DNA of 64,000 nt from Escherichia phage vB_EcoS_HdH2: sequence record NC_048748.1; one strand, 5' to 3'. The notes beneath the pieces are model-generated. The model was not told the origin of the DNA and did not search any database. It saw only the letters and a program-made list of their open reading frames with translations. Shown here piece by piece: positions 26,987 through 37,417 of the stretch. The number at the start of each line of letters is the position of its first letter. The first letter of the stretch is position 1. Made by a program: the position numbers and the translations under genes.

Positions 26987-27355
26987 TTACATCGCCTGAG
27001 TAAATGTACGACTAATAACATCGTTCTGTTGTTCACGCGTCAGTGCATTAAAACGTACAGCGTACCCTGAAACACGGATAGTTAATTGAGGGTATTTTTC
27101 AGGATGTTTCTGTGCATCCAAAAGCTGATCACGACTTAACACATTGACGTTTAGGTGTTGACCACCTTCAATTTGAGGGGCGACTTCCACCTTGACTTCA
27201 CGAAAGGACTCTGGGTCAAAGTGAGGTGTGATACCTTCTAGATCCTCAACTAGAACTTTTTGTTTAAGTTCACCATCTTTAGAGTATAATTGAATAATCT
27301 GATTATTATGAACAATATTAATTACGCCAGATTTAAGATTTTGGTACGCTTTCAT
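26987..27355 (-). CDS. grcA: Autonomous glycyl radical cofactor GrcA/YfiD-like
   Basis: C-terminus [10 protein letters not shown]...[20 protein letters not shown] closely matches E. coli GrcA (as recalled) including RVSGY; start trimmed to MKAYQ (about 123 aa). Confidence 0.7.
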
Positions 27356-27540
27356 TAGATCTCCTGTTTGGTAGTTAGTAGTGGATTTGAACCACTGTAG
27401 TCGCTCCGTATGAAGGAGGTGCATAACCACTCTGCCAACTAACTATTATGTTTTACTAGACTAAGTAAGTATTCTTTATACTCTTTAGACCAATTAGCTT
27501 TTTTAAACTTTCCTGGACGCATAGTCTTAATTCCTAAATT

Positions 27541-27617
27541 TGGTACTCCGGGAGGGATTTAAACCCCCGATCTCTCGGTTATCAGCTGAGTGCTTTAGAT
27601 CGCTAAGCTACCGAAGC
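27541..27617 (-). tRNA. tRNA, anticodon GAT (Ile) by manual fold
   Basis: Encoded CCA; acceptor with 2 G-U; T arm GGGGG/TTTAAAT/CCCTC. Confidence 0.45.
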
Positions 27618-27632
27618 ATTAAAATATTTACA

Positions 27633-27938
27633 TCACACACTGTCTAAGTAAGAAGTATAATGGAATTTAGTTTCTCCAGTCTTATCTACTTCTACCTCAG
27701 TTCGTGGTACTTGACGCACTATACCATGAATCATCTTATAGCGAATGCCTTTAGCTGGTTCATGATCTTTTGGAAATACTTGTTTAACCGTTACTACTTT
27801 ATACTCTTCACGCGGGGTTAGCACAACTACTTGATCACCTTCTTTGATTTTCCAAGAAGATGGAAATTCATAGGTATATCTTTGGCCACTAGTTTGGAAT
27901 ACTACAGAAAGATAACGTTTCATTTGGTTTCCTCTCAT
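27633..27938 (-). CDS. hypothetical protein
   Basis: 101 aa. Confidence 0.45.
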   Translation of the reverse strand: MRGNQMKRYLSVVFQTSGQRYTYEFPSSWKIKEGDQVVVLTPREEYKVVTVKQVFPKDHEPAKGIRYKMIHGIVRQVPRTEVEVDKTGETKFHYTSYLDSV

Positions 27939-27996
27939 TAATTTATATAAATATTATAGCAATAAATAAGAGAGAAAGCAAATGAATTTTTAAATT

Positions 27997-28071
27997 TGGT
28001 GCTCCCACCAGGAATCGAACCCGGTTCCACGGTTTACAAGACCGTTGCATCGCCAGCAATGCTTTAAGAGC
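27997..28071 (-). tRNA. tRNA-Thr (anticodon TGT)
   Basis: GGTTCGATTCC T-loop, CCA encoded, loop CTTGTAA. Confidence 0.55.
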
Positions 28072-28463
28072 TATCGTTGTCTTGTTGAAACTCTATTTCT
28101 GGCCCTATGCGTAGGGGTCATAGAGTGACAGTTAGGGCAGAGAATCTTTAGATTTTCTGGAGAACAGTTAGTTGCATCTCCATCTATATGATCTACCTCA
28201 GTTAAAACTGCTCCGTCAATTGGATGTTTCCCATCCCAACCACATACTTCACAAGCAGTACCACGAGTATCCCACAGCCACTTCCTAACAAAAGGTTTTA
28301 ATTGTGCAGCTTTACCAGTATAACCAGGTTCTTCACCTGCCAACCACTTTAATACTTTTTGCTTTGTCTGGTACTCCTGCTGACAAGCAGGACCACAATA
28401 CTTACCTGCGGAGCCCCTACTTTTAGGTTTTGTGATTCCGCAATTTAAACAAGTAAACTCCAT
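28071..28463 (-). CDS. HNH endonuclease
   Basis: EVDHIDGDATNCSPENLKILCPNCH HNH core plus N-terminal Cys-rich region. Confidence 0.65.
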   Translation of the reverse strand: MEFTCLNCGITKPKSRGSAGKYCGPACQQEYQTKQKVLKWLAGEEPGYTGKAAQLKPFVRKWLWDTRGTACEVCGWDGKHPIDGAVLTEVDHIDGDATNCSPENLKILCPNCHSMTPTHRARNRVSTRQR

Positions 28464-28628
28464 GTTGCTTCCTATTTCAACGGGATTTCTTTTTCAATAA
28501 CGGGAGACTTATCAGTCATAACTGCCATAGCCAACTGCTGAAGAAACTCGAAAGTTAGCTTTAAGCGTTCTTCGCCTAATTCAACCTCAACGTATTTCTT
28601 TTGTTTGTCAACCTTTAATTTTAGGTTA

Positions 28629-28850
28629 TCAGCCATCTTCGGATTCTCGTTGCTCGGCTACTGCTAGCCAGTCTGGTAAAAGAAACTTAGTACGAAACTC
28701 TTCATAAGATTCTTCTGGATAAAAGCTAAAACCTCCTTTCTCATCATTCAAGATAACAGAGCCGTCAGTTTGTTCATATGCTCGATATGTTTCTCCAATA
28801 ATGATAACTCGCTTATCAGTACTTTTATTACGAAACTCAAAAACGTGCAT
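28629..28850 (-). CDS. hypothetical protein
   Basis: 73 aa. Confidence 0.4.
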   Translation of the reverse strand: MHVFEFRNKSTDKRVIIIGETYRAYEQTDGSVILNDEKGGFSFYPEESYEEFRTKFLLPDWLAVAEQRESEDG

Positions 28851-28867
28851 AGAGATTCCTTAAAGAT

Positions 28868-28943
28868 TGGTGCGGGATACGAGAGTCGAACTCGTGTCTA
28901 CTGGTTGGAAGCCAGTTATTCTAGCCACTGAACTAATCACGCA
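28868..28943 (-). tRNA. tRNA-Gly (anticodon TCC)
   Basis: TTCGACT T-loop, CCA encoded, anticodon loop CTTCCAA; one acceptor mismatch. Confidence 0.5.
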
Positions 28944-28948
28944 TAAAT

Positions 28949-29023
28949 TGGCAGGAAAGTAGGGATTCGAACCCTAACTAAGAGATTCAAAATCTCCAGT
29001 GCTAACCGTTACACTACTCTCCA
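28949..29023 (-). tRNA. tRNA-Gln-like (anticodon TTG); acceptor/T-stem register ambiguous
   Basis: TTCGAAT T-loop, anticodon loop TTTTGAA. Confidence 0.4.
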
Positions 29024-29029
29024 ATTGTT

Positions 29030-29105
29030 TGGCTGGGATGCCACGGATCGAACGTGGAACCTTCGGAGTCAGAGGCCGACGATCTGCCAATTGATCTACA
29101 TCCCA
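29030..29105 (-). tRNA. tRNA, probable anticodon CTG (Gln)
   Basis: CCACG/TTCGATC/CGTGG T arm, perfect acceptor TGGGATG/CATCCCA. Confidence 0.45.
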
Positions 29106-29118
29106 ATAATTCTTTACT

Positions 29119-29313
29119 CTACGGAAATAGAGTAACTGGCTCAGGGTCTTCAAGACGCTTACCTTCATGATCTACTCGAATGACTCCACATCCTTCGCAA
29201 ACCACAACTGCACCATAACCTTCTTTGACTTCGGCTTCTGTAATCAAACCAGAAAGATCACCAGTATCTCTGCCCCACATATCAATGGAGCATTGTTTGC
29301 AGAAATCAGCCAT
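29119..29313 (-). CDS. small Cys-rich protein (zinc ribbon)
   Basis: CKQC ... CEGC pairs. Confidence 0.35.
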   Translation of the reverse strand: MADFCKQCSIDMWGRDTGDLSGLITEAEVKEGYGAVVVCEGCGVIRVDHEGKRLEDPEPVTLFP

Positions 29314-29338
29314 ATTTTATTTCCTATTTAAGTTAACT

Positions 29339-29415
29339 TGGGGTGGCTAGTGGAATTCGAATCCACATAGGCCTGATTCACAATCAGGATCATTAACCAA
29401 TTATGATATAGCCAC
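29339..29415 (-). tRNA. tRNA-His (anticodon GTG)
   Basis: Anticodon arm CCTGA/TTGTGAA/TCAGG, extra 5' G typical of tRNA-His. Confidence 0.55.
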
Positions 29416-29782
29416 AATTGAAAACTCGCAGGGTTAGCGAAACCTTCCTCAATTAGCATGTTCTAGAATACTAATCAAGTTATCTCCTATTGCACGCAGC
29501 TCAAGACGAGTACGAATTTTCAATTGTGGTGGCTCTCAGAAACTCTTCTATTCTAGCCTCAGAAGCTTACCCCCGAACGCCTGTCGGGAAAGTCTTTCCA
29601 AGAGCATCAAATAGCACCGTTACACTTTGAGCCATTGATGTATCGAGGAATAGAAGGACTTGAACCTTCATGAGTTAGACCATTTAACTCAACCGCTTTT
29701 AAGGTATATTTCTAGGAGTGGATGTTCCTAGTAAACCTATTGGGCAGTCCCATCTACCAATTCCGGCATATTCCAAGAACTT

Positions 29783-29965
29783 TTATAAACCAGCAGAAGC
29801 CTCATTTAAAGCATCAACAATAGCCTGTTGTTGAGTCCATCCTCTACCAGTAGAATTAACGTGTGGAAGATATACTTCCCAATAACCGTCTTCTAGTAAA
29901 GTTATTTGTGCACTAAACTCTGTGCCATCAGTTAGTGTAACCTTCACAGTTTTCGTTAAAGACAT
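29783..29965 (-). CDS. hypothetical protein
   Basis: 60 aa. Confidence 0.35.
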   Translation of the reverse strand: MSLTKTVKVTLTDGTEFSAQITLLEDGYWEVYLPHVNSTGRGWTQQQAIVDALNEASAGL

Positions 29966-29980
29966 ATATTACCCTATAAG

Positions 29981-30070
29981 TTGGCAGAAGGTAATGGAGT
30001 CGAACCATCACCGTATCACTACAGCGGGCTAGTTTTCAAGACTAGTTGCGTACCACTACGCCCTACCTTC
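29981..30070 (-). tRNA. tRNA-Ser (anticodon TGA), type II
   Basis: 90 nt with long variable arm; anticodon arm CTAGT/CTTGAAA/ACTAG. Confidence 0.55.
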
Positions 30071-30077
30071 TATTTGT

Positions 30078-30168
30078 TTGGCGGAAGAGGAGAGATTTGA
30101 ACTCTCAAGCCGTTTTACCAGTCAGCCACTTTCCAAGCGGTTTTCGTCGCCAATTCGATTTGCTCTTC
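30078..30168 (-). tRNA. type II tRNA (Ser/Leu class; anticodon possibly GGA)
   Basis: 91 nt, TTCAAAT T-loop, perfect 7-bp acceptor. Confidence 0.45.
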
Positions 30169-30280
30169 CAATAATAAGATGATGCCTCTATCACACCAGG
30201 CAGTTACGCCCCACTGGGATTCGAACCCATTAAAACAGCTCAACCGAGATAGTAGGTTTAATTTACTCTGAACATCAAAT

Positions 30281-30357
30281 TTGGTGCGTGACAAGGGATT
30301 CGAACCCTCAAAACCCGACTTCTAAGGACGGTATGTATGCCCATTCCATCAATCACG
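30281..30357 (-). tRNA. tRNA (anticodon unresolved, possibly TAG)
   Basis: GAGGG/TTCGAAT/CCCTT T arm and acceptor GCGTGAT/GTCACGC. Confidence 0.4.
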
Positions 30358-30362
30358 CGTAT

Positions 30363-30441
30363 TTGGTGGAGAATAACGGAATCGAACCGTTCTGATGTCC
30401 TCGGTGCAAGCGAGGTGTCCACTCCATGCAGACCCATTCCC
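30363..30441 (-). tRNA. tRNA-Ala (anticodon TGC)
   Basis: Anticodon arm CCTCG/CTTGCAC/CGAGG, T-loop TTCGATT. Confidence 0.5.
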
Positions 30442-30700
30442 CAAATTCTTTAGTTTACTAAGGCTATTAGCTCGGCGTAACTACAGCACCTTCGCTTCGA
30501 GCGGAAGGAACCGCGTCATCTCGCAAACCCGATACACTATTCAGTTGCCATGAATCTAGTGGACTAATCTAGAACTTCTCCCAAATCGTAGGGATCGTGC
30601 TTTTTGGCAGCCAGTCCTAGGTCGAGCTAATACCTTAGTGAACTATGATGAGGATTTCTCCCCATCAATTTATATAAATATTATAACAAGAAATTAAGCA

Positions 30701-31060
30701 TTAAGCAAGTACATTTTTGCAGATTTCTTGTAGTTCCTTTACATCACGAACGTAAAGATAGTCTGAACTTCCAGAGTGCATACTTTGCATAAACACACCC
30801 TCATCTGGCGCAGTATCCTTCAAAGTAATTCCTAACCAGAACTCGGCAAAACTAGGTGTTATCTCACCTTGACTTGCCTTGAATACATCGGCTTCTGTGA
30901 TCTCCTGACCAGTAGAAAGTCCCATATACGGTACGTTCAGATCAATATCTTTGTAGAATTCAGCTAGGTCTTGTTCGAAGTCCCAACCTTTAGAGATAGC
31001 GAACTCTATTGTTACATGACCGAAATAGCCTTGAACCTTGCTTGATAATTGCATTTGCAA
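30701..31060 (-). CDS. hypothetical protein
   Basis: 119 aa. Confidence 0.45.
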   Translation of the reverse strand: MQMQLSSKVQGYFGHVTIEFAISKGWDFEQDLAEFYKDIDLNVPYMGLSTGQEITEADVFKASQGEITPSFAEFWLGITLKDTAPDEGVFMQSMHSGSSDYLYVRDVKELQEICKNVLA

Positions 31061-31079
31061 TTCCTTATTTTGAGTTAAT

Positions 31080-31152
31080 TGGTACTCGGTGATAGAATCG
31101 AACTATCGCAACCGCCGTGTAAAGACGGGGTTCTCCCATTAAACTAACCGAG
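31080..31152 (-). tRNA. tRNA-Val (anticodon TAC)
   Basis: Loop TTTACAC, T arm GATAG/TTCGATT/CTATC. Confidence 0.5.
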
Positions 31153-31286
31153 CAAAAGATTTGCTACTAAAAATGCTTCGAACAGAAATTCACAAAATCC
31201 CGCTAAAAACATACCTATTGTAAAATCGGCAGAAAATACATAGGAATCTTTTATTTTCTGCTTCATTAAGTAAAACCAGATAGTCA

Positions 31287-31604
31287 TTAAAATCTCTCCA
31301 TTCTAAAGCCAATGAAGTAAGGTGCATTACACGGAACATGCTTAAGATCTTTGAGAGTAATTTTACGTCCTAAGCGTCGTTCCATACAAGTGAAACATAG
31401 AACAATATCTTTGGGCTGCTCTTTTCTTATCTGATCCCAGACCCAATCTTCAACCATACACATTTCATGGTATTGTTCACAGTCTCGACAATAATGACAC
31501 TGATGTTCTGGTACTTTTTGATTTTTAATACACAGTTCGGTAAAGCGTTTTCCGGCTCTGCCAGACATTTCTGATATTGTTTCTAGAACTTTGTTAATAT
31601 TCAT
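31287..31604 (-). CDS. Cys-rich hypothetical protein
   Basis: 105 aa; CHYCRDC ... CFTC. Confidence 0.45.
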   Translation of the reverse strand: MNINKVLETISEMSGRAGKRFTELCIKNQKVPEHQCHYCRDCEQYHEMCMVEDWVWDQIRKEQPKDIVLCFTCMERRLGRKITLKDLKHVPCNAPYFIGFRMERF

Positions 31605-31621
31605 AACAAATTCCTTTAAAT

Positions 31622-31700
31622 TGGTAGATCGCCTGGGACTCGAACCCAGAACCTTCCGATTAAAAGTCGGATGCTGCTAAACCTATTGCGCTAGCGACCT
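31622..31700 (-). tRNA. tRNA-Lys (anticodon TTT)
   Basis: Anticodon arm TCCGA/CTTTTAA/TCGGA, T arm CTGGG/TTCGAGT/CCCAG. Confidence 0.55.
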
Positions 31701-31889
31701 ATTAGTAGCCATTATATACTTCTTTAATAGAATGGACTTTTAAGTAAGAATGATTAATCCCAAACTCCGCCATTACTTCTTTTTCATCTTTTCCATAATG
31801 TGCAAGTAAGGATCTTGAGGTATTATTACCTAAACGTTTGTCACTTACTACTAATCGAAATACTTTCATTTCGAAATCCTCTATTAAAA

Positions 31890-31967
31890 TGGAAGCGGGT
31901 GCAGGAATCGAACCTACCTCTTTCTAGCTTATGAGACTAGCGATCTCTACCAGAGATCTAACCCGCA
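31890..31967 (-). tRNA. tRNA with CAT anticodon (Met/fMet/Ile2)
   Basis: Anticodon loop CTCATAA; U-U at acceptor 1:72. Confidence 0.45.
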
Positions 31968-31973
31968 ATTGTT

Positions 31974-32049
31974 TGGTCAGTGCGGCAGGACTCGAACCTG
32001 CGACCCGAAGCATCCAAGGCTCCCACGCTACCAACTGCGCTACGCACTG
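31974..32049 (-). tRNA. tRNA-Pro (anticodon TGG)
   Basis: Perfect acceptor CAGTGCG/CGCACTG, anticodon arm GGAGC/CTTGGAT/GCTTC. Confidence 0.55.
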
Positions 32050-32258
32050 TTAATTTTTGTTAACTCACTTTATAAAATATATTATACAGATAATTAAGCA
32101 TAATAGCAAATGAATTTTTAATAAATTTACTTATTGTGTAGGCCACCTGGAGGCTACCAACCCCACGGCTGACAAAGAAGTTTGCGAGACTTCTCTTAAA
32201 AGCCAGAATAGACCCGCCGATCTATCGGAACCTACATAATAAGTAAACTTTATAGTGT

Positions 32259-32379
32259 CATTCTAGACAGGATTCGAACCTGTTATCCCTTGTGCGGACT
32301 TACGAGAACCCTTCTTTCACTCGAATCGAACGAGCTTCTGCCCTCGCCAAGTTGGTTTCCCCATCAACCACGCTAGAAT
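32259..32379 (-). ncRNA. tRNA-like element about 121 nt with two T-arm-like hairpins and a matched acceptor-like stem
   Basis: ATTCTAG/CTAGAAT ends, D-arm-like TGGT...ACCA, hairpins GCTCG-TTCGATT-CGAGT and ACAGG-TTCGAAT-CCTGT. Confidence 0.35.
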
Positions 32380-32501
32380 GTTTGGTTGTTTTCAGTGCAA
32401 GAGTCCGAGTCTTGGACACGACCGCTTCGCAAGTACATAGGCAGCTTATCATGAGTCAGCACTTCCGAATTGCTAGCTCCGTGTTCTGCACTGAAATTTT
32501 A

Positions 32502-32849
32502 TTAGTTTAACCGTAAAGTATTATCTACTTCAACATTAATTGTTCGGCATTCCTCTGGGATTGCTGGGGTGGCCTTGTATTCCCACCACTCAGCACCGTC
32601 ATACTCCCCACGTTCTAGCCAAGTTCCATCGGCAAACCATACATTACCATAAAGTAATTGTCCACCGTATCCAGAATCATATTCAAAGTCTAGGTTATTA
32701 AGAAAATCCTCAATATCTTCTTCTGTATAGCCTAAAGGTAGTACCCAAATTTTTTTATCCCCATAATACCCGAATTCTATTTTAATACACTTAACTTTAG
32801 AATTGGTATTTTTTAAGGCGAGTAACAGCTCTTCTTTAGCATTACGCAT
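32502..32849 (-). CDS. hypothetical protein
   Basis: 115 aa. Confidence 0.45.
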   Translation of the reverse strand: MRNAKEELLLALKNTNSKVKCIKIEFGYYGDKKIWVLPLGYTEEDIEDFLNNLDFEYDSGYGGQLLYGNVWFADGTWLERGEYDGAEWWEYKATPAIPEECRTINVEVDNTLRLN

Positions 32850-32874
32850 AGTATATTCTCATACTGAATTAATT

Positions 32875-32951
32875 TGGCGCGACCGATGGGATTTGAACCC
32901 ACATTCCCTCCCGTGACAGGGGAGTACCATTACCAAGCCAGCCCCGGTCGC
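32875..32951 (-). tRNA. tRNA-Asp (anticodon GTC)
   Basis: Perfect acceptor GCGACCG/CGGTCGC, anticodon arm CTCCC/CTGTCAC/GGGAG. Confidence 0.55.
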
Positions 32952-32960
32952 ATAATTTAT

Positions 32961-33146
32961 TTACTCAGCTTTGAGTTTTTCAATAGCTGCATTAAGTTCT
33001 TTAAGAAACTCTTTTCGTACATTAAGACGATTGAGACTTACTAGTATATCATGTTTAAGTTCTTCGATGTATTTCTTCTCAACTTCAATATTGTTGATAG
33101 TGCTATCACGATGAACTTCTAGCTGCGCAATCACATTCTTGGACAT
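32961..33146 (-). CDS. hypothetical coiled-coil protein
   Basis: 61 aa. Confidence 0.35.
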   Translation of the reverse strand: MSKNVIAQLEVHRDSTINNIEVEKKYIEELKHDILVSLNRLNVRKEFLKELNAAIEKLKAE

Positions 33147-33247
33147 GCTTGTTTCCTCAGTTATTAATGAAAATGGTATCTGTGGCTGAATTCGATGTCA
33201 GCAATGATAGCTGGTTGGCTACCGGTTTACTTAACTCTACACAGAAT

Positions 33248-33330
33248 TTGGCGGGCCGTGTAGGATTCGAACCTACGTTGTCTTTCGACATGGATTAACA
33301 GTCCACCGCCAAACCGCTTGGCTAACGACC
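33248..33330 (-). tRNA. tRNA, anticodon GTT (Asn) by manual fold, unusually long variable region
   Basis: 83 nt; D arm GCCA...TGGC, loop CTGTTAA. Confidence 0.4.
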
Positions 33331-33483
33331 CTAAATTTATATTGCTGACTAGGATTTTCACCTAGACGGAGTTAGCACCGTAGCGTGTAGCGGCATACCT
33401 CTCCAAACCGTGCCTCATCTTTCAATTACGGAGACAGTGTTCCTACGCGTGCCTGAATTGATTTAACAATTCTTTCAGCAAAT

Positions 33484-33559
33484 TGGACGACCGCATGAGA
33501 TTTGAACTCACATAAAAAGGATTTGCAATCCTTCGCCTAAGCCATTCAGCCAACGGTCG
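33484..33559 (-). tRNA. tRNA-Cys (anticodon GCA)
   Basis: Anticodon arm AAGGA/TTGCAAA/TCCTT, T-loop TTCAAAT. Confidence 0.5.
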
Positions 33560-33628
33560 GTTTATCTTGTTCTGTTATGTTGCTTCTCCAGTTCAATTTA
33601 TGTAATTATTATACAGAACTTTCGGAAA

Positions 33629-33901
33629 CTAAGCAACTACATTTTTTAAGAATTTGATGCCTTTCTTTTTCTTCTTATATTTCCACGTTAATGGATTCTG
33701 TCGATTATGAACGCTTGAGATCTTCGTCTCGTCAAAGTTCTTCAATATCATGTAATCACAAGATAATTGTTCTAGTGGAATGTGATCACCGTCAAAAGCA
33801 TATACATAAGGCTGTTGACTAGCACGATAATGATAGACTTTATTAATTCTACGTTTCAGCGACTTATCCGCGCAGTAAATAAAGAAGTTTTCAGGATGCA
33901 T
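33629..33901 (-). CDS. hypothetical protein
   Basis: 90 aa. Confidence 0.4.
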   Translation of the reverse strand: MHPENFFIYCADKSLKRRINKVYHYRASQQPYVYAFDGDHIPLEQLSCDYMILKNFDETKISSVHNRQNPLTWKYKKKKKGIKFLKNVVA

Positions 33902-33918
33902 CAGCAGCTCCTTTAATT

Positions 33919-33993
33919 TGGTGCACCCTGTTCGTATCGAACGAACCTCTCAAGCTCTTCAGGCAAGCGCTAATCCATCTCAGCTAAAGGTGC
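33919..33993 (-). tRNA. tRNA (anticodon unresolved)
   Basis: T arm GTTCG/TTCGATA/CGAAC, CCA encoded, 7-bp acceptor with G-U. Confidence 0.4.
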
Positions 33994-33999
33994 AAATTT

Positions 34000-34076
34000 T
34001 GGCAAACCTACTAGGACTCGAACCTAGACCGTACGGTTTTGGAGACCGACATGCTGTCCAGTAACACTCTAGGAAT
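34000..34076 (-). tRNA. tRNA-like, possible anticodon CCA (Trp); acceptor pairing poor
   Basis: T arm CTAGG/TTCGAGT/CCTAG, loop CTCCAAA. Confidence 0.3.
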
Positions 34077-34083
34077 GCAGAAA

Positions 34084-34161
34084 TTGGCGTCCTGTGCGGG
34101 GATCGAACCCGCAAATCCTACCTTGAAAGGGTAGTGACTTTACCAGTTTGTCTAACAGGAC
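34084..34161 (-). tRNA. tRNA-Glu (anticodon TTC)
   Basis: Perfect acceptor, anticodon arm CTACC/CTTTCAA/GGTAG. Confidence 0.55.
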
Positions 34162-34168
34162 TTAAATT

Positions 34169-34259
34169 TGGTGTTGGATGATGGAGTCGAACCACCCGAG
34201 ACCCTTCCGAGTCGGCAGATTTACAGTCTGCTTCGCTACCTCTACGATACTAATCCAAC
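34169..34259 (-). tRNA. tRNA-Tyr (anticodon GTA), type II
   Basis: 91 nt, anticodon arm GCAGA/CTGTAAA/TCTGC, long variable arm. Confidence 0.55.
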
Positions 34260-34387
34260 ATATTTAAAAGTATTCAAATACTAGTTTAAACACTTTTAAA
34301 TATGTTTCCGAATTAGATAACTATTATACCAAGTTTTAAGGCACTGAGCAAGTCAAATTTTAAAGAACTTGCTCAGTGCTGTATTAG

Positions 34388-34663
34388 TTAGTCGAACTTA
34401 GGAGTGACAGTTAAGGAGAACGGAAGTTCGAAAACTTCTTCGCCCTCATTACTAACGGTAACTACACGACCTTTAAGTTCAGACATTAAAATATCAATAT
34501 CAGCTTTTGCATCTGGAGCCATGCCAGCTTCAATACATTTAGCTTTAACTTCCGGTAAAAGCTCTACGTTATAGAGATAGAGCCACTCAATCTCACCTTC
34601 CCAGTCTTCCCAGGATTTGCAGATTGCACTTTCAATACCAGTTGCTACAACACGATTTTGCAT
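34388..34663 (-). CDS. hypothetical protein
   Basis: 91 aa. Confidence 0.4.
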   Translation of the reverse strand: MQNRVVATGIESAICKSWEDWEGEIEWLYLYNVELLPEVKAKCIEAGMAPDAKADIDILMSELKGRVVTVSNEGEEVFELPFSLTVTPKFD

Positions 34664-34753
34664 TCGTTAACTCCTTCATCAATTTATACAACTATTATAT
34701 CAGAAATTTAAAGCAAAAGGCAAGTACATTTTTAAAAATTCTGTTTGGAGGAG

Positions 34754-34960
34754 CTAAACTCCAGATTCTTCAGCTAAGTCTAGACTAATAAGAGTTATAG
34801 CCATAATTGCTGCACCGTGTTCTTTTTCTCCGGTGTTTTTAGCAGAGTCTATAATATCCTTAATCTGTTCGTAATAACTTTTTACTTCTTGTTCAATGCC
34901 TGCCTCGGCTATCATGCCTTTAGCCATGAATCGTTGCATGGTAATTTCAGGATTAGCCAT
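34754..34960 (-). CDS. hypothetical protein
   Basis: 68 aa. Confidence 0.35.
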   Translation of the reverse strand: MANPEITMQRFMAKGMIAEAGIEQEVKSYYEQIKDIIDSAKNTGEKEHGAAIMAITLISLDLAEESGV

Positions 34961-35134
34961 GTTGTTTCTCCAGTTTCATTTTTAATAGTTTACAGAGGAA
35001 ATCAACGTCTTCATCTGTGCCTAAGTCTCTATCCTCAAGGGTCGCCTTGAAGTTTTTCGTCAATTCCATGAGGATGACTTCCCTAGAACGACGTGTTAGC
35101 GGAGGTGGATGTCTATACATCTTATTTCCTTAAT

Positions 35135-35211
35135 TTGGTAGGGGTGGTGGGATTCGAACCCACAAAACCTGAATTTTAAGTCCAGTACCTATGCCAATTC
35201 GATTACACCCC
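35135..35211 (-). tRNA. tRNA (type I length; apparent anticodon TAA, assignment uncertain)
   Basis: T arm GTGGG/TTCGAAT/CCCAC, acceptor GGGGGTG/CACCCCT. Confidence 0.4.
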
Positions 35212-35428
35212 CGTGTAATTTAGTCAATTACTTTTGAAGCTTCAAGGTAGTCGATATAGTGTACGTTTTCTACCGTAATCATATAATCTGCCACTTTATC
35301 CATAGCTTGGGCTTCAGAGGTAGCTCTGGCTAACCTATATCCTTTTTTATATTCATCAGGGTATTCTCTATCTTGAATAAACACAACATAAACTATGTAT
35401 AATTCCACTTGTAATCCCCTAATTAAGT

Positions 35429-35506
35429 TGGTGGCTCCCCGAGGATTCGAACCTACGTACCTTCCGGTTATGAGCCGGGTGCTCATACCATATGAGCTTG
35501 AGAACC
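35429..35506 (-). tRNA. tRNA-like with CAT anticodon; T stem has a bulge
   Basis: Acceptor GGTTCTC/GGGAGCC pairs with G-U; loop CTCATAA. Confidence 0.35.
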
Positions 35507-35512
35507 AGAATT

Positions 35513-35601
35513 TGGCGGAAGAAGTGGGAATCGAACCCACAAGGCTATATTTCAAACCGACAGATTAGCAATCTGCTGCAATACCGTTATGCTATTCTTC
35601 C
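35513..35601 (-). tRNA. tRNA-Ser (anticodon GCT), type II
   Basis: 89 nt, perfect acceptor GGAAGAA/TTCTTCC, loop TTGCTAA. Confidence 0.5.
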
Positions 35602-35621
35602 GAATTTATAAATATATTATA

Positions 35622-36191
35622 TTAGAAATTTAACTTCATAGCAAGAAAATTTTTCAAGTTTTCGGTAGACATCTCATCCACATCTATAGGAGAAACAAAC
35701 CCATTTAATTGTCTAGCAAACTTTTCGCCAGCAGGATCATTATCCCCAACAGCTACCAATTTAAAAGGTAGTAATTTCAATTGCTTTAACAACGCTTTTC
35801 CGGGGGAAGAACCCAACATTGCTAGGGCAGGATAACCAGCGTTATGTAACGCAACTGCCTTAAATACAGATTCAGCAATCAATACTACTTTTTCATCTCC
35901 ATTGAGAGTTTCTAGTCCCCATACACACTGTGTAGTAGAATAAGTAAAATATTTAGCCTCAAAGGGACACTTACCATGACCTTTTGGAGCAGAAGGATTA
36001 TAAGTCTGATAGCCTCTCAACATCCCAGAGAAGTCATACAATGGGACTGTTAGCCAGCCTTCTGGGCTTAACCAGCAATGATATTTATCTGTATCAAACC
36101 CTCTAGATAAGAGATGTTCTGTTAGTTCATCAACAGTCATATTAGATTCCTCTCTCAAATTTATAAATATATTATACAGAGAATTTAGCAT
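35622..36191 (-). CDS. hypothetical protein, possible Toprim-like fold
   Basis: LIAESVFKAVAL ... VAVGDNDPAGEKFA resembles E...DxD Toprim signature; weak. Confidence 0.4.
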   Translation of the reverse strand: MLNSLYNIFINLREESNMTVDELTEHLLSRGFDTDKYHCWLSPEGWLTVPLYDFSGMLRGYQTYNPSAPKGHGKCPFEAKYFTYSTTQCVWGLETLNGDEKVVLIAESVFKAVALHNAGYPALAMLGSSPGKALLKQLKLLPFKLVAVGDNDPAGEKFARQLNGFVSPIDVDEMSTENLKNFLAMKLNF

Positions 36192-36344: not shown

Positions 36345-36406
36345 ATATGTTATGGATGAGTGATCAAAGAGACACACATTTTCTATATACTAGGAGGTGT
36401 CAAAAA

Positions 36407-37396
36407 ATGACAGAAGAAGTAGCTAAGAGTCCTGAAACCGTCGCTAGCGTAGCAGCAGAACTGCATCGTCACGAGGAATCAGATAAGAAAAAGTGGGAGA
36501 AAGTCAAAGCCTACGAAGAAGAACATCGTGAACACGATGATAAAGATGAAGAAGATGACGATGATGAACATTGTCATAAATATGGAAAACATAAAATGCA
36601 AGAACCAGTAAACGTATTTACTAACGGCTTCCCTGGCATGGGTGCATTCCCAGCTAACGCAAGTGCTTTCGGTGGAGAAGGTATGGGCCTATTCGGAGCT
36701 ATCCTAATCGGTGCTCTATTAACAGGCGGATTTGGTGGTTTCGGTGGATTCGGTGGACGTGGTGTAGTTAGTGATGGTACCGCAGTTGATGCAGTACTTC
36801 AGAACCAAGATACCGCTAGTATTCTAGCAGCTATTAACACTACTCGTACAGAAGCTAATCAGGGTACTGGAGCTGTTTTAAGCGCAGTTAACAATGGTTT
36901 TAGCCAGACATCCCAAAACCAGAGCCGTGATACTCAGTCTGTACTAACTACGATCTATGGTACAGGTGCTAATCTGTCTAATCAGATCTGCCAGGAAACT
37001 CGCAACGTTATTCAGGGTCAGTTCGATCTTTCTCGCCAGATTGATCAATCTTTCGCAGCTAACCAGATAGCTCGTGCACAAGATAAGTTTGATTCTGCAC
37101 AGATCGCTTTCCAGCAGACTTTACAAACTAATAACCAGTTTGCCGCTGTTCAGGCTCAGATGTGTGCTAACCAGAACTCTCTGGAACGTCAGATCGCTGA
37201 ATGTTGCTGTGAACTTCAGACTGCGATCGCTGGTGTAACTACTGCGCGTATCCAGGATGAGTTAGACGCATGTCGCCTACGTGAAGCAATCGCTGCGGGT
37301 AGCGGTGCTAACGGTCAGGTAATTAATCAAATCGCTTTAAGTCTTGGTGCTATCACTCAGACTCTGGCTGGTCTGCAGGCTAAACTGCCGGCTTAA
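36407..37396 (+). CDS. membrane protein: acidic His-rich N-terminus, Gly-zipper TM segment, Q/N/T/A-rich C-terminal domain
   Basis: ORF 36347-37396 trimmed to MTEEV after aggagg RBS; GLFGAILIGALLTGGFGGFGGFGG segment. Confidence 0.5.
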   Translation: MTEEVAKSPETVASVAAELHRHEESDKKKWEKVKAYEEEHREHDDKDEEDDDDEHCHKYGKHKMQEPVNVFTNGFPGMGAFPANASAFGGEGMGLFGAILIGALLTGGFGGFGGFGGRGVVSDGTAVDAVLQNQDTASILAAINTTRTEANQGTGAVLSAVNNGFSQTSQNQSRDTQSVLTTIYGTGANLSNQICQETRNVIQGQFDLSRQIDQSFAANQIARAQDKFDSAQIAFQQTLQTNNQFAAVQAQMCANQNSLERQIAECCCELQTAIAGVTTARIQDELDACRLREAIAAGSGANGQVINQIALSLGAITQTLAGLQAKLPA

Positions 37397-37417
37397 TATT
37401 AAGGGGAGGAGCCCATT

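What the first reader, a model, noticed from the sequence alone, without database searches (positions are those of the whole stretch)
27541..35601. Dense array of about 25 tRNA genes, several non-canonical
tRNAs are interleaved with small ORFs and HNH endonucleases, and all are on the minus strand. Hand-folded anticodons cover Ile, Thr, Gly, Gln, His, Ser, Ala, Val, Lys, Met, Pro, Asp, Asn, Cys, Glu, Tyr and Arg. Several candidates show acceptor mismatches, a bulged T stem or type I length with a Leu-like anticodon, which may mark variants that escape host anticodon nucleases. As I recall, T5 tRNAs, notably tRNA-Lys, have been reported to counter tRNA-cleaving defences such as PARIS and PrrC-type enzymes.
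Basis: partly seen in the sequence, partly recalled or inferred. Interest (0 to 1): 0.45.

Follow-up and report, generated by a model that had tools for sequence, protein, structure and literature searches.

The report
T5-type phage tRNA gene array
This is the well-known cluster of about 25 transfer-RNA genes carried by T5-like phages, which lets the virus keep making protein when the host's tRNAs are scarce or cut by defence enzymes; it is real and functional, but already described.

Summary
The array is real. ARAGORN and Rfam together give 25 tRNA genes with an encoded CCA end, plus one tRNA-like element. All lie on the minus strand between 27369 and 39793, and 23 fall inside the stated coordinates. 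The window is a Tequintavirus (T5-like) genome: 95.8% identical to Salmonella phage oldekolle here and syntenic with the annotated tRNA regions of T5, BF23 and SP15.

The odd features are confirmed. They include two 77-nt class I tRNA-Leu, a bulged T stem in tRNA-Ile2(CAU), U·U mismatches in Trp and Phe, a bulged D stem in Lys, and a hairpin-bearing variable arm in Asn. These are conserved alleles, not pseudogenes. Near-identical copies acted as amber suppressors (BF23, T5) or rescued phages from Retron-Eco7 and PrrC170 (SP15).

However, the flagged oddities do not coincide with known escape determinants. The anticodon loops of Lys, Thr, Asn and Tyr are identical to E. coli's, and the whole Tyr anticodon arm is identical.

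Verdict: already known, modest interest.

The parts
27369..27444 (-). tRNA-Met(CAU), elongator type, 76 nt; lies just outside the stated start
   Evidence: 51.5 bits; 100% identical to T5 tRNAM
27541..27617 (-). tRNA-Ile(GAU); D loop lacks GG; T loop is UUUAAAU (U56)
   Evidence: 97% identical to T5 tRNAI1, which is annotated as convertible to an amber suppressor
27997..28071 (-). tRNA-Thr(UGU); A8; rare allele with anticodon-arm 3' side UAAACC
   Evidence: only 83-87% identical to other T5-like alleles
28071..28463 (-). HNH endonuclease ORF (130 aa) abutting the 5' end of tRNA-Thr; sporadically distributed, homing-type element
   Evidence: Pfam HNH/HNH_3, PHROG HNH families; absent from oldekolle; full-length match in about 6 phage records
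28868..28942 (-). tRNA-Gly(UCC); U4.C69 mismatch; A73 where E. coli has U73
   Evidence: (65.5 bits)
28949..29023 (-). tRNA-Gln(UUG); U1.U72; rare allele
29030..29105 (-). tRNA-Gln(CUG); intact here (in T5 a pseudogene overlapped by hegD)
29339..29415 (-). tRNA-His(GUG); C73; U rather than G at -1; A53-U61
   Evidence: 100% identical to T5 tRNAH, annotated as an effective amber suppressor after anticodon change
29982..30071 (-). tRNA-Ser(UGA), class II, 90 nt
30282..30358 (-). tRNA-Leu(UAG), class I architecture (77 nt, 5-nt variable loop), A73
   Evidence: 98.7% identical to BF23 tRNAL1, noted as an 'effective amber suppressor'; covariation
30364..30442 (-). tRNA-Ala(UGC), 79 nt; G3.U70; G8; 7-nt variable loop
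   Evidence: ARAGORN; 36.3 bits in Rfam when searched alone; cloverleaf is the minimum-free-energy fold
31080..31153 (-). tRNA-Val(UAC)
31622..31700 (-). tRNA-Lys(UUU), 79 nt; extra bulged nucleotide in the 3' strand of the D stem; UAAUCG
   Evidence: 97% identical to the SP15 tRNA-Lys that rescued phages from PrrC170
31890..31967 (-). initiator-type tRNA-Met(CAU); U1.U72 mismatch
   Evidence: 100% identical to T5 tRNAfM
31974..32049 (-). tRNA-Pro(UGG)
32875..32951 (-). tRNA-Asp(GUC)
33249..33331 (-). tRNA-Asn(GUU), 83 nt; 13-nt variable arm forming a GUC-GAAA-GAC hairpin; anticodon arm nearly identical to the host's
   Evidence: 100% identical to SP15; hairpin kept by compensatory changes in other phages
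33484..33559 (-). tRNA-Cys(GCA), U73
33919..33993 (-). tRNA-Phe(GAA); two U.U mismatches in the anticodon stem; G37
   Evidence: 97% identical to T5 tRNAF
34000..34076 (-). tRNA-Trp(CCA); U2.U71 and U3.U70; thermodynamically the weakest candidate
   Evidence: (36.3 bits); minimum-free-energy fold is not a cloverleaf, z = 0.10; at least 97% conserved in 10 genomes
34085..34161 (-). tRNA-Glu(UUC)
34169..34259 (-). tRNA-Tyr(GUA), class II, 91 nt; anticodon arm 17/17 identical to E. coli
   Evidence: 100% identical to the SP15 tRNA-Tyr that rescues from Retron-Eco7
34323..34351 (-). promoter upstream of tRNA-Tyr (TTGCTC, 17-nt spacer, TGG-TATAAT), homologous to T5 promoter P14a
   Evidence: alignment with T5 and SP15; T5 annotation
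35136..35212 (-). tRNA-Leu(UAA), class I architecture (77 nt), A73; absent from T5, where hegA sits
35429..35506 (-). tRNA-Ile2 type (CAU) with a one-nucleotide bulge in the T stem; missed by ARAGORN
   Evidence: Rfam 40.3 bits; fold; T5 tRNAI2 differs only by one compensatory pair and is annotated as functional
35513..35601 (-). tRNA-Ser(GCU), class II
   Evidence: 100% identical to T5
39145..39219 (-). tRNA-Arg(UCU); outside the stated range
39722..39793 (-). tRNA-like element without CCA and without a canonical anticodon arm, inside the region T5 annotates as stable 'RNAX'
   Evidence: Rfam 35.5 bits; compensatory acceptor change between T5 and BF23; T5 annotation

Best explanation
This is the tRNA gene region of a T5-like (Tequintavirus) phage. 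It holds 25 tRNA genes with encoded CCA ends, arranged in short tandem groups with 5-8 nt spacers. Conserved small ORFs and one mobile HNH gene lie between the groups. The genes are transcribed on the minus strand from phage early promoters. By inference from T5, the transcripts are processed and charged by host enzymes. The set decodes every codon family except CGN. It works as a spare translation kit in two ways. First, it replaces or out-numbers host tRNAs that defence nucleases destroy: PARIS AriB (Lys, Thr, Asn), Retron-Eco7 PtuAB (Tyr) and PrrC (Lys). Second, it supplies the isoacceptors for A-ending and rare codons that this AT-rich genome over-uses. The unusual structures are inherited, conserved features of phage tRNA lineages that remain functional. 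They are neither decay nor, on present evidence, the determinants of nuclease escape. Shown here: gene identity, structures, synteny, conservation, covariation and codon bias. Taken from the literature: expression, suppression and rescue. Inferred: that this phage's own alleles behave like their near-identical relatives.
For: Detection and structure. Source and synteny with oldekolle, T5, SP15, chee24 and BF23. Thirteen tRNAs are 96-100% identical to T5's. Function of near-identical alleles comes from two sources. GenBank notes for T5 and BF23 record amber suppression after anticodon replacement. SP15 tRNA-Tyr (100% identical) rescues from Retron-Eco7 and SP15 tRNA-Lys (97%) from PrrC170. The promoter upstream of Tyr is conserved, matching the 'strong promoter'. 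Codon bias: AGA 8.2x, AGG 6.9x, CUA 4.8x, AUA 2.8x, GGA 2.5x, UUA 2.4x, CCA 2.3x, ACA 2.2x and GUA 2.2x more used in phage ORFs than in an E. coli sample, each read by a phage tRNA. Class I tRNA-Leu: A73, A14, A15 and G18G19 are invariant; 96.9% of cells are paired; 12 of 20 pairs change on both sides across six phage taxa; 0 of 500 shuffles reach this. E. coli LeuRS needs A73 and the D/T-loop tertiary elements, not the long arm (PMC9976931).
Against: No expression or charging data exist for this exact phage. tRNA-Trp is weak: two acceptor U.U mismatches, and the minimum-free-energy fold is not a cloverleaf. tRNA-Gly has A73 where E. coli GlyRS expects U73 (the identity rule is from my own knowledge). 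The region is dispensable in the laboratory for T5, and four of 18 related genomes carry only 9-12 tRNAs here, one of them a truncated locus. CGU, the phage's commonest Arg codon (50%), has no phage tRNA. The window's tRNA-Lys and tRNA-Asn lack the T5 substitutions shown to block AriB, so PARIS resistance of this phage cannot be assumed.
Confidence: 0.85

Rival explanations
1. The odd structural features are themselves adaptations that let the phage tRNAs escape host anticodon nucleases.
For: Resistance to AriB depends on positions outside the loop: U39, A41 and U16. The window's tRNA-Thr carries UAAACC, the same 36-41 sequence as the resistant T5 tRNA-Lys. Reported target tRNAs are polymorphic among 18 T5-like genomes: Lys has 3 allele clusters, Tyr 5, Asn 2. 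Asn and Lys carry extra structure (variable hairpin, D-stem bulge) that could hinder nuclease docking.
Against: Anticodon loops are identical to the host's in 14 of 25 tRNAs, including Lys, Thr, Asn and Tyr, and the Tyr anticodon arm is 17/17 identical. Non-targets (Leu 5 clusters, Ala 4, Pro 4, Glu 4) are as polymorphic as targets. For Tyr the authors propose over-supply from a strong promoter, not resistance.
Confidence: 0.2
2. Codon compensation is the main function: the array supplies tRNAs for codons that are common in the AT-rich phage and rare in the host.
For: The window is 39% G+C. In every box of four or six codons the phage tRNA is the U34 isoacceptor, and its Watson-Crick cognate A-ending codon is 1.2-8x over-represented. 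The host-rare codons AGA, CUA, AUA and GGA are all covered.
Against: Taken over all codons, cognate and non-cognate codons do not differ significantly (Mann-Whitney p = 0.20). U-ending codons are the phage's commonest, and CGU has no phage tRNA. PMC11464382 states that measured tRNA abundances versus codon frequencies do not directly support this hypothesis. This reading does not explain why alleles differ so much between close relatives. It is compatible with the best explanation rather than exclusive of it.
Confidence: 0.4
3. The odd candidates are decaying pseudogenes in a dispensable region.
For: T5 deletion mutants lacking up to 16 tRNAs are viable. Natural relatives carry large deletions. 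T5 Gln(CUG) is annotated as a pseudogene. Trp folds poorly. The element at 39722-39793 has lost CCA and its anticodon arm.
Against: All 25 exceed the Rfam cut-off and keep U33, a purine at position 37 and an encoded CCA; all keep the TΨC loop, apart from U56 in tRNA-Ile(GAU). The odd alleles are at least 96% conserved across many genomes, and stems are kept by compensatory changes. Near-identical Leu(UAG), Ile2, His, Lys and Tyr are functional.
Confidence: 0.08
4. The mosaic of very different alleles at the same positions is driven mainly by homing-endonuclease traffic and recombination between co-infecting T5-like phages, not by selection from tRNA nucleases.
For: The window's HNH gene abuts the rare tRNA-Thr allele and is found in only about 6 records. 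In T5 and BF23 four HNH genes sit next to or overlap tRNA genes: hegD over Gln2, hegC over Ser2, hegA beside Ile2, and in T5 hegA occupies the place of the window's Leu(UAA). Allele combinations are shuffled between genomes; for example chee24 has T5-type Asn and Tyr but window-type Leu, Lys and Pro.
Against: A window-like Thr allele also occurs without the HNH gene. Most polymorphic tRNAs in this window have no adjacent endonuclease. Homing explains spread but not why divergent alleles stay functional.
Confidence: 0.3

Closest known systems
Bacteriophage T5 tRNA gene region (AY543070, about 28.0-41.6 kb)
   Same: Same gene order, strand, small ORFs, promoters and stable-RNA regions. Thirteen tRNAs are 96-100% identical: Met, Ile1, His, Ser1, Val, fMet, Asp, Cys, Phe, Glu, Ile2, Ser3 and Arg.
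   Different: Ten positions carry alleles only about 50-70% identical: Gly, both Gln, Leu-UAG, Ala, Lys, Pro, Asn, Trp and Tyr. Thr is 83% identical. T5 Leu(UAG) is an 85-nt class II tRNA, whereas the window's is a 77-nt class I tRNA. T5 Asn is 78 nt without the variable hairpin. T5 has Ser(GGA) and four HNH genes; the window has Leu(UAA) and one different HNH gene. T5 tRNA-Lys has the PARIS-escape sequence UAAACC and C16; the window's has UAAUCG and U16.
Phage BF23 tRNA gene region (AJ604530)
   Same: Its tRNAL1 is the same 77-nt class I tRNA-Leu(UAG) (98.7% identical) and is annotated as an effective amber suppressor after anticodon change. The overall layout is the same.
   Different: BF23 carries T5-type Asn and Tyr, an extra Gly(GCC), hegA and no Leu(UAA). 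Its tRNA-Lys allele has the loop CCUUUAA, with C33.
Escherichia phage SP15 tRNA-rich region (AP019559; Azam et al. 2024)
   Same: Tyr and Asn are 100% identical and Lys 97%. The promoter upstream of Tyr is the same. SP15 Tyr counters Retron-Eco7 and SP15 Lys counters PrrC170.
   Different: SP15 has a different Thr and Gln(UUG) allele and no HNH gene upstream of Thr.
Anticodon-loop escape variants of mycobacteriophage tRNAs (van den Berg et al. 2023, PMC10264068)
   Same: Phage tRNA arrays are read as a counter to tRNA-targeting defence.
   Different: That model rests on changes in the 7-nt anticodon loop. Here 14 of 25 loops, including all reported targets, equal the host's; differences lie in the stems and the tRNA body.

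Membership tests
tRNA (Rfam RF00005) | Cloverleaf sequence and structure score at or above the gathering score of 29 bits | tested here: met
   Met by 25 genes plus one tRNA-like element, 32.6-65.5 bits; ARAGORN agrees for 24.
tRNA (Rfam RF00005) | Usable decoding and acceptor ends: U33, purine at 37, 7-nt anticodon loop, 3' CCA | tested here: met
   Met by all 25. Not met by 39722-39793, which has no CCA, A at position 33 and a 3-bp anticodon stem, so that element is not filed as a tRNA gene.
T5-like (Tequintavirus) tRNA gene region | Nucleotide similarity and conserved gene order with the annotated T5, BF23 and SP15 regions | tested here: met
   656 phage records match, best 95.8%; order is Met-Ile-Thr-Gly-Gln-Gln-His-Ser-Leu-Ala-Val-Lys-fMet-Pro-Asp-Asn-Cys-Phe-Trp-Glu-Tyr-(Leu)-Ile2-Ser ... 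Arg.
T5-like (Tequintavirus) tRNA gene region | Expression as stable, chargeable tRNAs during infection | not testable with these tools
   Supported only by GenBank notes and papers on near-identical alleles.
Bacterial tRNA-Leu (class II) | Long variable arm | tested here: not met
   Both Leu-anticodon genes are 77 nt with the 5-nt variable loop GUUUU. They are therefore not class II tRNA-Leu by architecture.
E. coli LeuRS identity set | A73, A14, A15 with U48, G18G19 and the A at position 20a in the D loop (PMC9976931) | tested here: met
   Present in both genes, and invariant in eight class I tRNA-Leu from six phage taxa. Actual leucylation was not tested; BF23 suppression is indirect.
PARIS-resistant tRNA-Lys of T5 | U39A, A41C and U16C relative to E. 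coli tRNA-Lys(UUU) | tested here: not met
   The window's Lys keeps U39 and U16 and has A41G and U17A. It is a different allele, 71% identical to T5's.
PARIS-resistant tRNA-Lys of T5 | Not cleaved by AriB | not testable with these tools
   Needs an in vitro cleavage or plating assay.
Retron-Eco7-countering tRNA-Tyr (SP15 type) | Same tRNA sequence and same upstream promoter as the tested SP15 gene | tested here: met
   91/91 nt identical; promoter core identical.
HNH homing endonuclease | HNH catalytic motif | tested here: met
   PF01844 at 23.6 bits and PF13392 at 24.9 bits, both above their cut-offs; 13 PHROG HNH families.
HNH homing endonuclease | Sporadic presence or absence between close relatives at one site | tested here: met
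   Absent from oldekolle, SP15, chee24 and T5 at this site; full-length match in about 6 records. Cleavage specificity was not tested.

The most novel reading that the evidence does not exclude
Virulent phages of several unrelated groups maintain tRNAs whose architectural class differs from every cellular counterpart. One is a class I tRNA-Leu lacking the long arm, seen in Tequintavirus, a Vibrio Demerecviridae phage, Seunavirus, Felixounavirus, a Schitoviridae phage and an Aeromonas phage. The other is a tRNA-Asn that has gained a hairpin variable arm capped by a GNRA loop, seen in Tequintavirus, Priunavirus and a 166-kb Klebsiella phage. The novel reading is that these class switches are selected because they remove or mask body features that host tRNA-targeting nucleases or decay pathways read, while host synthetases still accept the tRNAs. 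I found no paper in the searched library that describes either family.
Probability: 0.2. Interest if true: 0.55.

Novelty: already known. Interest (0 to 1): 0.25.

Why it matters
The array as such adds nothing new. T5-type tRNA clusters have been mapped and annotated for decades, and their anti-defence role was shown in 2024-2025. This window adds a worked example showing that close relatives of T5 carry quite different alleles of the very tRNAs shown to matter (Lys, Thr, Asn, Tyr). Results obtained with T5 alleles therefore cannot simply be transferred. This phage's Lys and Asn lack the T5 escape substitutions, while its Thr has them. The window also shows that class I tRNA-Leu and hairpin-armed tRNA-Asn are conserved phage tRNA families. 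This is an exception to the textbook statement that tRNA-Leu always has a long arm outside animal mitochondria (PMC9976931).

Tried and rejected
1. Ancestry of the class I tRNA-Leu from global similarity to E. coli tRNAs was uninformative: all isotypes give about 50-57 matches.
2. The sigma-70 consensus scan was not enriched (29 sites against 31.2 expected). It missed the conserved promoter upstream of Tyr because the -35 hexamer matches only 3/6. Promoter claims therefore rest on alignment to annotated T5 promoters.
3. Whole-window Rfam scans, even at E up to 5, missed tRNA-Ala. This was a filter artefact.
4. ARAGORN misses the bulged-T-stem Ile2 and some T5-type alleles (Gly, Trp), so the allele counts are lower bounds.
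5. A Mann-Whitney test of codon enrichment over all codons was not significant (p = 0.20). The signal is confined to boxes of four or six codons.
6. Three literature searches for class I tRNA-Leu or long-arm tRNA-Asn in phages found nothing relevant. The library lacks most subscription papers, including the Russian T5/BF23 tRNA literature.
7. I considered that the HNH gene explains the rare Thr allele. A similar allele exists without it, so the link is loose.
8. Minimum-free-energy folds of single tRNAs were a weak test: both Leu and Trp do not give a cloverleaf, although Leu has strong covariation support.
9. tRNAscan-SE isotype models were not available.

Full report
**Observation**

ARAGORN reports 24 tRNA genes in the 64-kb window. 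All are on the minus strand and all lie between 27369 and 39219. Rfam reports 25 matches to RF00005 above the gathering score. The two lists differ at three places.

- Rfam adds a CAU-anticodon tRNA at 35432-35506. Its T stem carries a one-base bulge, and it is followed by ACCA.
- Rfam also adds a tRNA-like sequence at 39722-39793. This element has no CCA and no canonical anticodon arm.
- Rfam lacks tRNA-Ala at 30364-30442. Searched alone, that sequence scores 36.3 bits, so it had been lost to speed filters.

The union is 25 tRNA genes, each with an encoded CCA, plus one tRNA-like element. Twenty-three lie within 27541-35601. Met(CAU) at 27369-27444 lies just before the range, and Arg(UCU) at 39145-39219 well after it.

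Tandem groups have spacers of 5-8 nt: Gly-Gln-Gln, Leu-Ala, fMet-Pro, Phe-Trp-Glu-Tyr and Ile2-Ser. Only one ORF in the range is an HNH endonuclease (28071-28463). The other interleaved ORFs match phage families of unknown function.

**Source**

The region matches 656 phage records. The best is Salmonella phage oldekolle (Tequintavirus) at 95.8%. Gene order is the same as in the annotated tRNA regions of oldekolle, T5, SP15, chee24 and BF23. Against T5 itself the set is a mosaic.

- Thirteen tRNAs are 96-100% identical.
- Thr is 83% identical.
- Ten are only about 50-70% identical despite the same position and anticodon: Gly, Gln-UUG, Gln-CUG, Leu-UAG, Ala, Lys, Pro, Asn, Trp and Tyr.

Across 18 T5-like genomes (public records plus IMG/VR loci), alleles fall into several clusters at 90% identity. 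Leu-UAG and Tyr have five clusters each. Ala, Pro and Glu have four. Lys and each Gln have three. Asn has two, split 8:8 between 83 nt and 78 nt. His, Phe, Leu-UAA, Ser-UGA, Trp and Gly have one each.

**The non-canonical features**

These are real.

- Two genes with Leu anticodons (UAG, UAA) are 77 nt with a 5-nt variable loop, which is class I architecture.
- Ile2(CAU) has the bulged T stem.
- Trp has U2.U71 and U3.U70, and its minimum-free-energy fold is not a cloverleaf (z = 0.10).
- Phe has two U.U mismatches in the anticodon stem.
- Lys has an extra nucleotide in the 3' strand of the D stem. The window's two substitutions shift that bulge but do not remove it.
- Asn has a 13-nt variable region that folds as a GUC-GAAA-GAC hairpin.
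- Ile(GAU) lacks GG in the D loop and has U56.
- His has U at -1 and A53-U61.
- Gly has A73.

They are not signs of decay.

- The class I Leu(UAG) is 98.7% identical to BF23 tRNAL1. The depositors annotate that gene as an effective amber suppressor after anticodon replacement.
- T5 Ile2, His and Ile1, which are near-identical to the window's, carry similar notes.
- The window's Tyr and Asn are identical to SP15's, and its Lys is 97% identical. SP15 Tyr rescued phages from Retron-Eco7 and SP15 Lys from PrrC170 (PMC11555353).

**Class I tRNA-Leu**

Both genes have A73 and a D loop (GAAUUGGCAUA and GAAUGGGCAUA) that keeps A14, A15, G18G19 and the A at position 20a, together with U48. For E. coli LeuRS these are the identity elements, and the long arm is dispensable (PMC9976931).

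Similar 77-78-nt Leu tRNAs occur in a Seunavirus pair, a Felixounavirus, a Pseudomonas Schitoviridae phage, a Vibrio Demerecviridae phage and an Aeromonas phage. On an alignment of eight such sequences the cloverleaf is 96.9% paired. Twelve of 20 pairs change on both sides. No shuffle out of 500 and no slid register comes close. This is a conserved phage tRNA family.

**Hairpin-armed tRNA-Asn**

This allele is at least 95% conserved in more than 260 phage records. In Bas33, a Priunavirus and a 166-kb Klebsiella phage the variable hairpin is kept by compensatory changes under GNRA loops: AUCC-GCAA-GGAU, GUUC-GAAA-GGAC and GUCA-GAAA-UGAC.

**Comparison with the host**

I fetched the E. coli K-12 isoacceptor for every phage anticodon. 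Phage tRNAs are 53-71% identical to them overall. The 7-nt anticodon loop is identical in 14 of 25. For the tRNAs reported as nuclease targets:

- Tyr has an anticodon arm 17/17 identical to E. coli's.
- Asn differs by one compensatory pair and keeps the host site UAAUC|C.
- Lys has the host loop and UAAUCG, against host UAAUC|A and T5 UAAACC.
- Thr has UAAACC.

Belukhina et al. showed that U39A abolishes AriB cleavage and that A41C and U16C impair it. They also showed that restoring the site in T5 Lys does not restore cleavage. The window's Lys keeps U39 and U16 (with A41G and U17A), so its resistance cannot be inferred. Its Thr has both anticodon-arm substitutions.

For Tyr, Azam et al. propose over-supply from a strong promoter. 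That promoter (TTGCTC, 17 nt, TGG-TATAAT, at 34351-34323) is conserved in the window, T5 and SP15.

**Codon usage**

The window is 39% G+C. In 52 long ORFs, compared with 39 E. coli genes, these codons are over-used: AGA (8.2x), AGG (6.9x), CUA (4.8x), AUA (2.8x), GGA (2.5x), UUA (2.4x), CCA (2.3x), ACA (2.2x) and GUA (2.2x). Each is read by a phage tRNA. Over all codons the contrast is not significant (p = 0.20). CGU, half of the phage's Arg codons, has no phage tRNA. The set decodes every family except CGN. Codon matching and insurance against tRNA loss are therefore both plausible and not exclusive. The PARIS paper notes that abundance data do not directly support pure codon compensation.

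**Mobile element**

The HNH gene abuts the 5' end of tRNA-Thr, whose allele is rare. The gene occurs full-length in about six records, and a similar Thr allele exists without it. In T5 and BF23, HNH genes overlap or flank Gln2, Ser2 and Ile2. Endonuclease traffic and recombination probably contribute to the allele mosaic.

**Verdict**

This is a real, functional and already well-described feature. The link drawn between the particular oddities and nuclease escape is not supported by the sequence comparison. The residual interest lies in two points: the allele differences at Lys, Thr, Asn and Tyr relative to T5, and the two conserved phage tRNA families with a switched architectural class.

Noticed in passing
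window 40069-40512 (-): A 147-aa protein at the upstream edge of the tRNA region matches PHROG 1460 'tRNA amidotransferase' (E = 3.6e-46). It also matches Pfam YqeY weakly (26.3 bits, cut-off 27) and B. subtilis YqeY (1ng6) weakly (E = 0.031). It looks like a stand-alone GatB/YqeY-type module, a domain I recall as tRNA-binding, encoded next to a tRNA array. oldekolle labels the homologue 'recombination related exonuclease'.
   Followed up: partly
window 39722-39793 (-): A conserved tRNA-like element with no CCA, A at position 33 and a 3-bp anticodon stem. It lies inside the region T5 annotates as stable 'RNAX'. The acceptor pair 5:68 is A-U in T5, U-A in BF23 and U.U here, which is why ARAGORN misses it in this window.
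   Followed up: partly
window 29645-29713 (-): A sub-threshold tRNA match (22.8 bits, E = 0.61) in the gap after tRNA-His, where T5 and BF23 annotate stable RNAs RNAIII, RNAI and the 'tRNA-like' RNA1.
   Followed up: no
L029 (IMGVR_UViG_2974654585, 108,640 bp), the tRNA at the Trp position: The same odd Trp-type tRNA carries anticodon CUA instead of CCA through a single substitution. ARAGORN calls it 'Pyl'. It is a possible natural amber suppressor in a T5-like phage.
   Followed up: no
L019 (BF23), L026, L028, L029: tRNA-Lys: The BF23-type tRNA-Lys allele has the anticodon loop CCUUUAA, with C at the almost universally U position 33. BF23's annotation nevertheless calls it an effective amber suppressor after anticodon change. 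C33 lies next to the site where, as I recall, PrrC cuts.
   Followed up: no
window 26987-27355 (-): A 122-aa glycyl-radical protein (Pfam Gly_radical, 66.5 bits, RVSGYAVRF motif), a GrcA-like spare part for pyruvate formate-lyase. It lies immediately upstream of the first tRNA. The mechanically listed ORF (from GTG) runs into tRNA-Met.
   Followed up: partly
window 35622-36191 (-): A 189-aa Toprim-domain protein (Pfam Toprim_2; PHROG 'DNA primase') flanks the array, conserved in T5 as T5.076. It is noted only because the tRNA-cleaving effectors AriB and OLD are also Toprim enzymes. No link was tested.
   Followed up: no
window 36347-37837 (+) and 38163-39110 (-): A plus-strand island splits the tRNA region. 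It holds a 349-aa Gly/Gln-rich protein and a 139-aa Gln-rich protein, both with PHROG matches of unknown function only. It is followed by a strong bidirectional-type terminator hairpin (38139-38109) and an SPFH/Band 7 protein.
   Followed up: no
L020, L021 (Arg-ACG); L023, L031 (Lys-CUU); L019 (Gly-GCC); L002 (Ser-GGA): Relatives carry extra tRNAs absent from this window, including Arg(ACG), which would fill the window's only missing codon family (CGN). Four relatives (L021, L022, L027, L034) have only 9-12 tRNAs in the region.
   Followed up: partly
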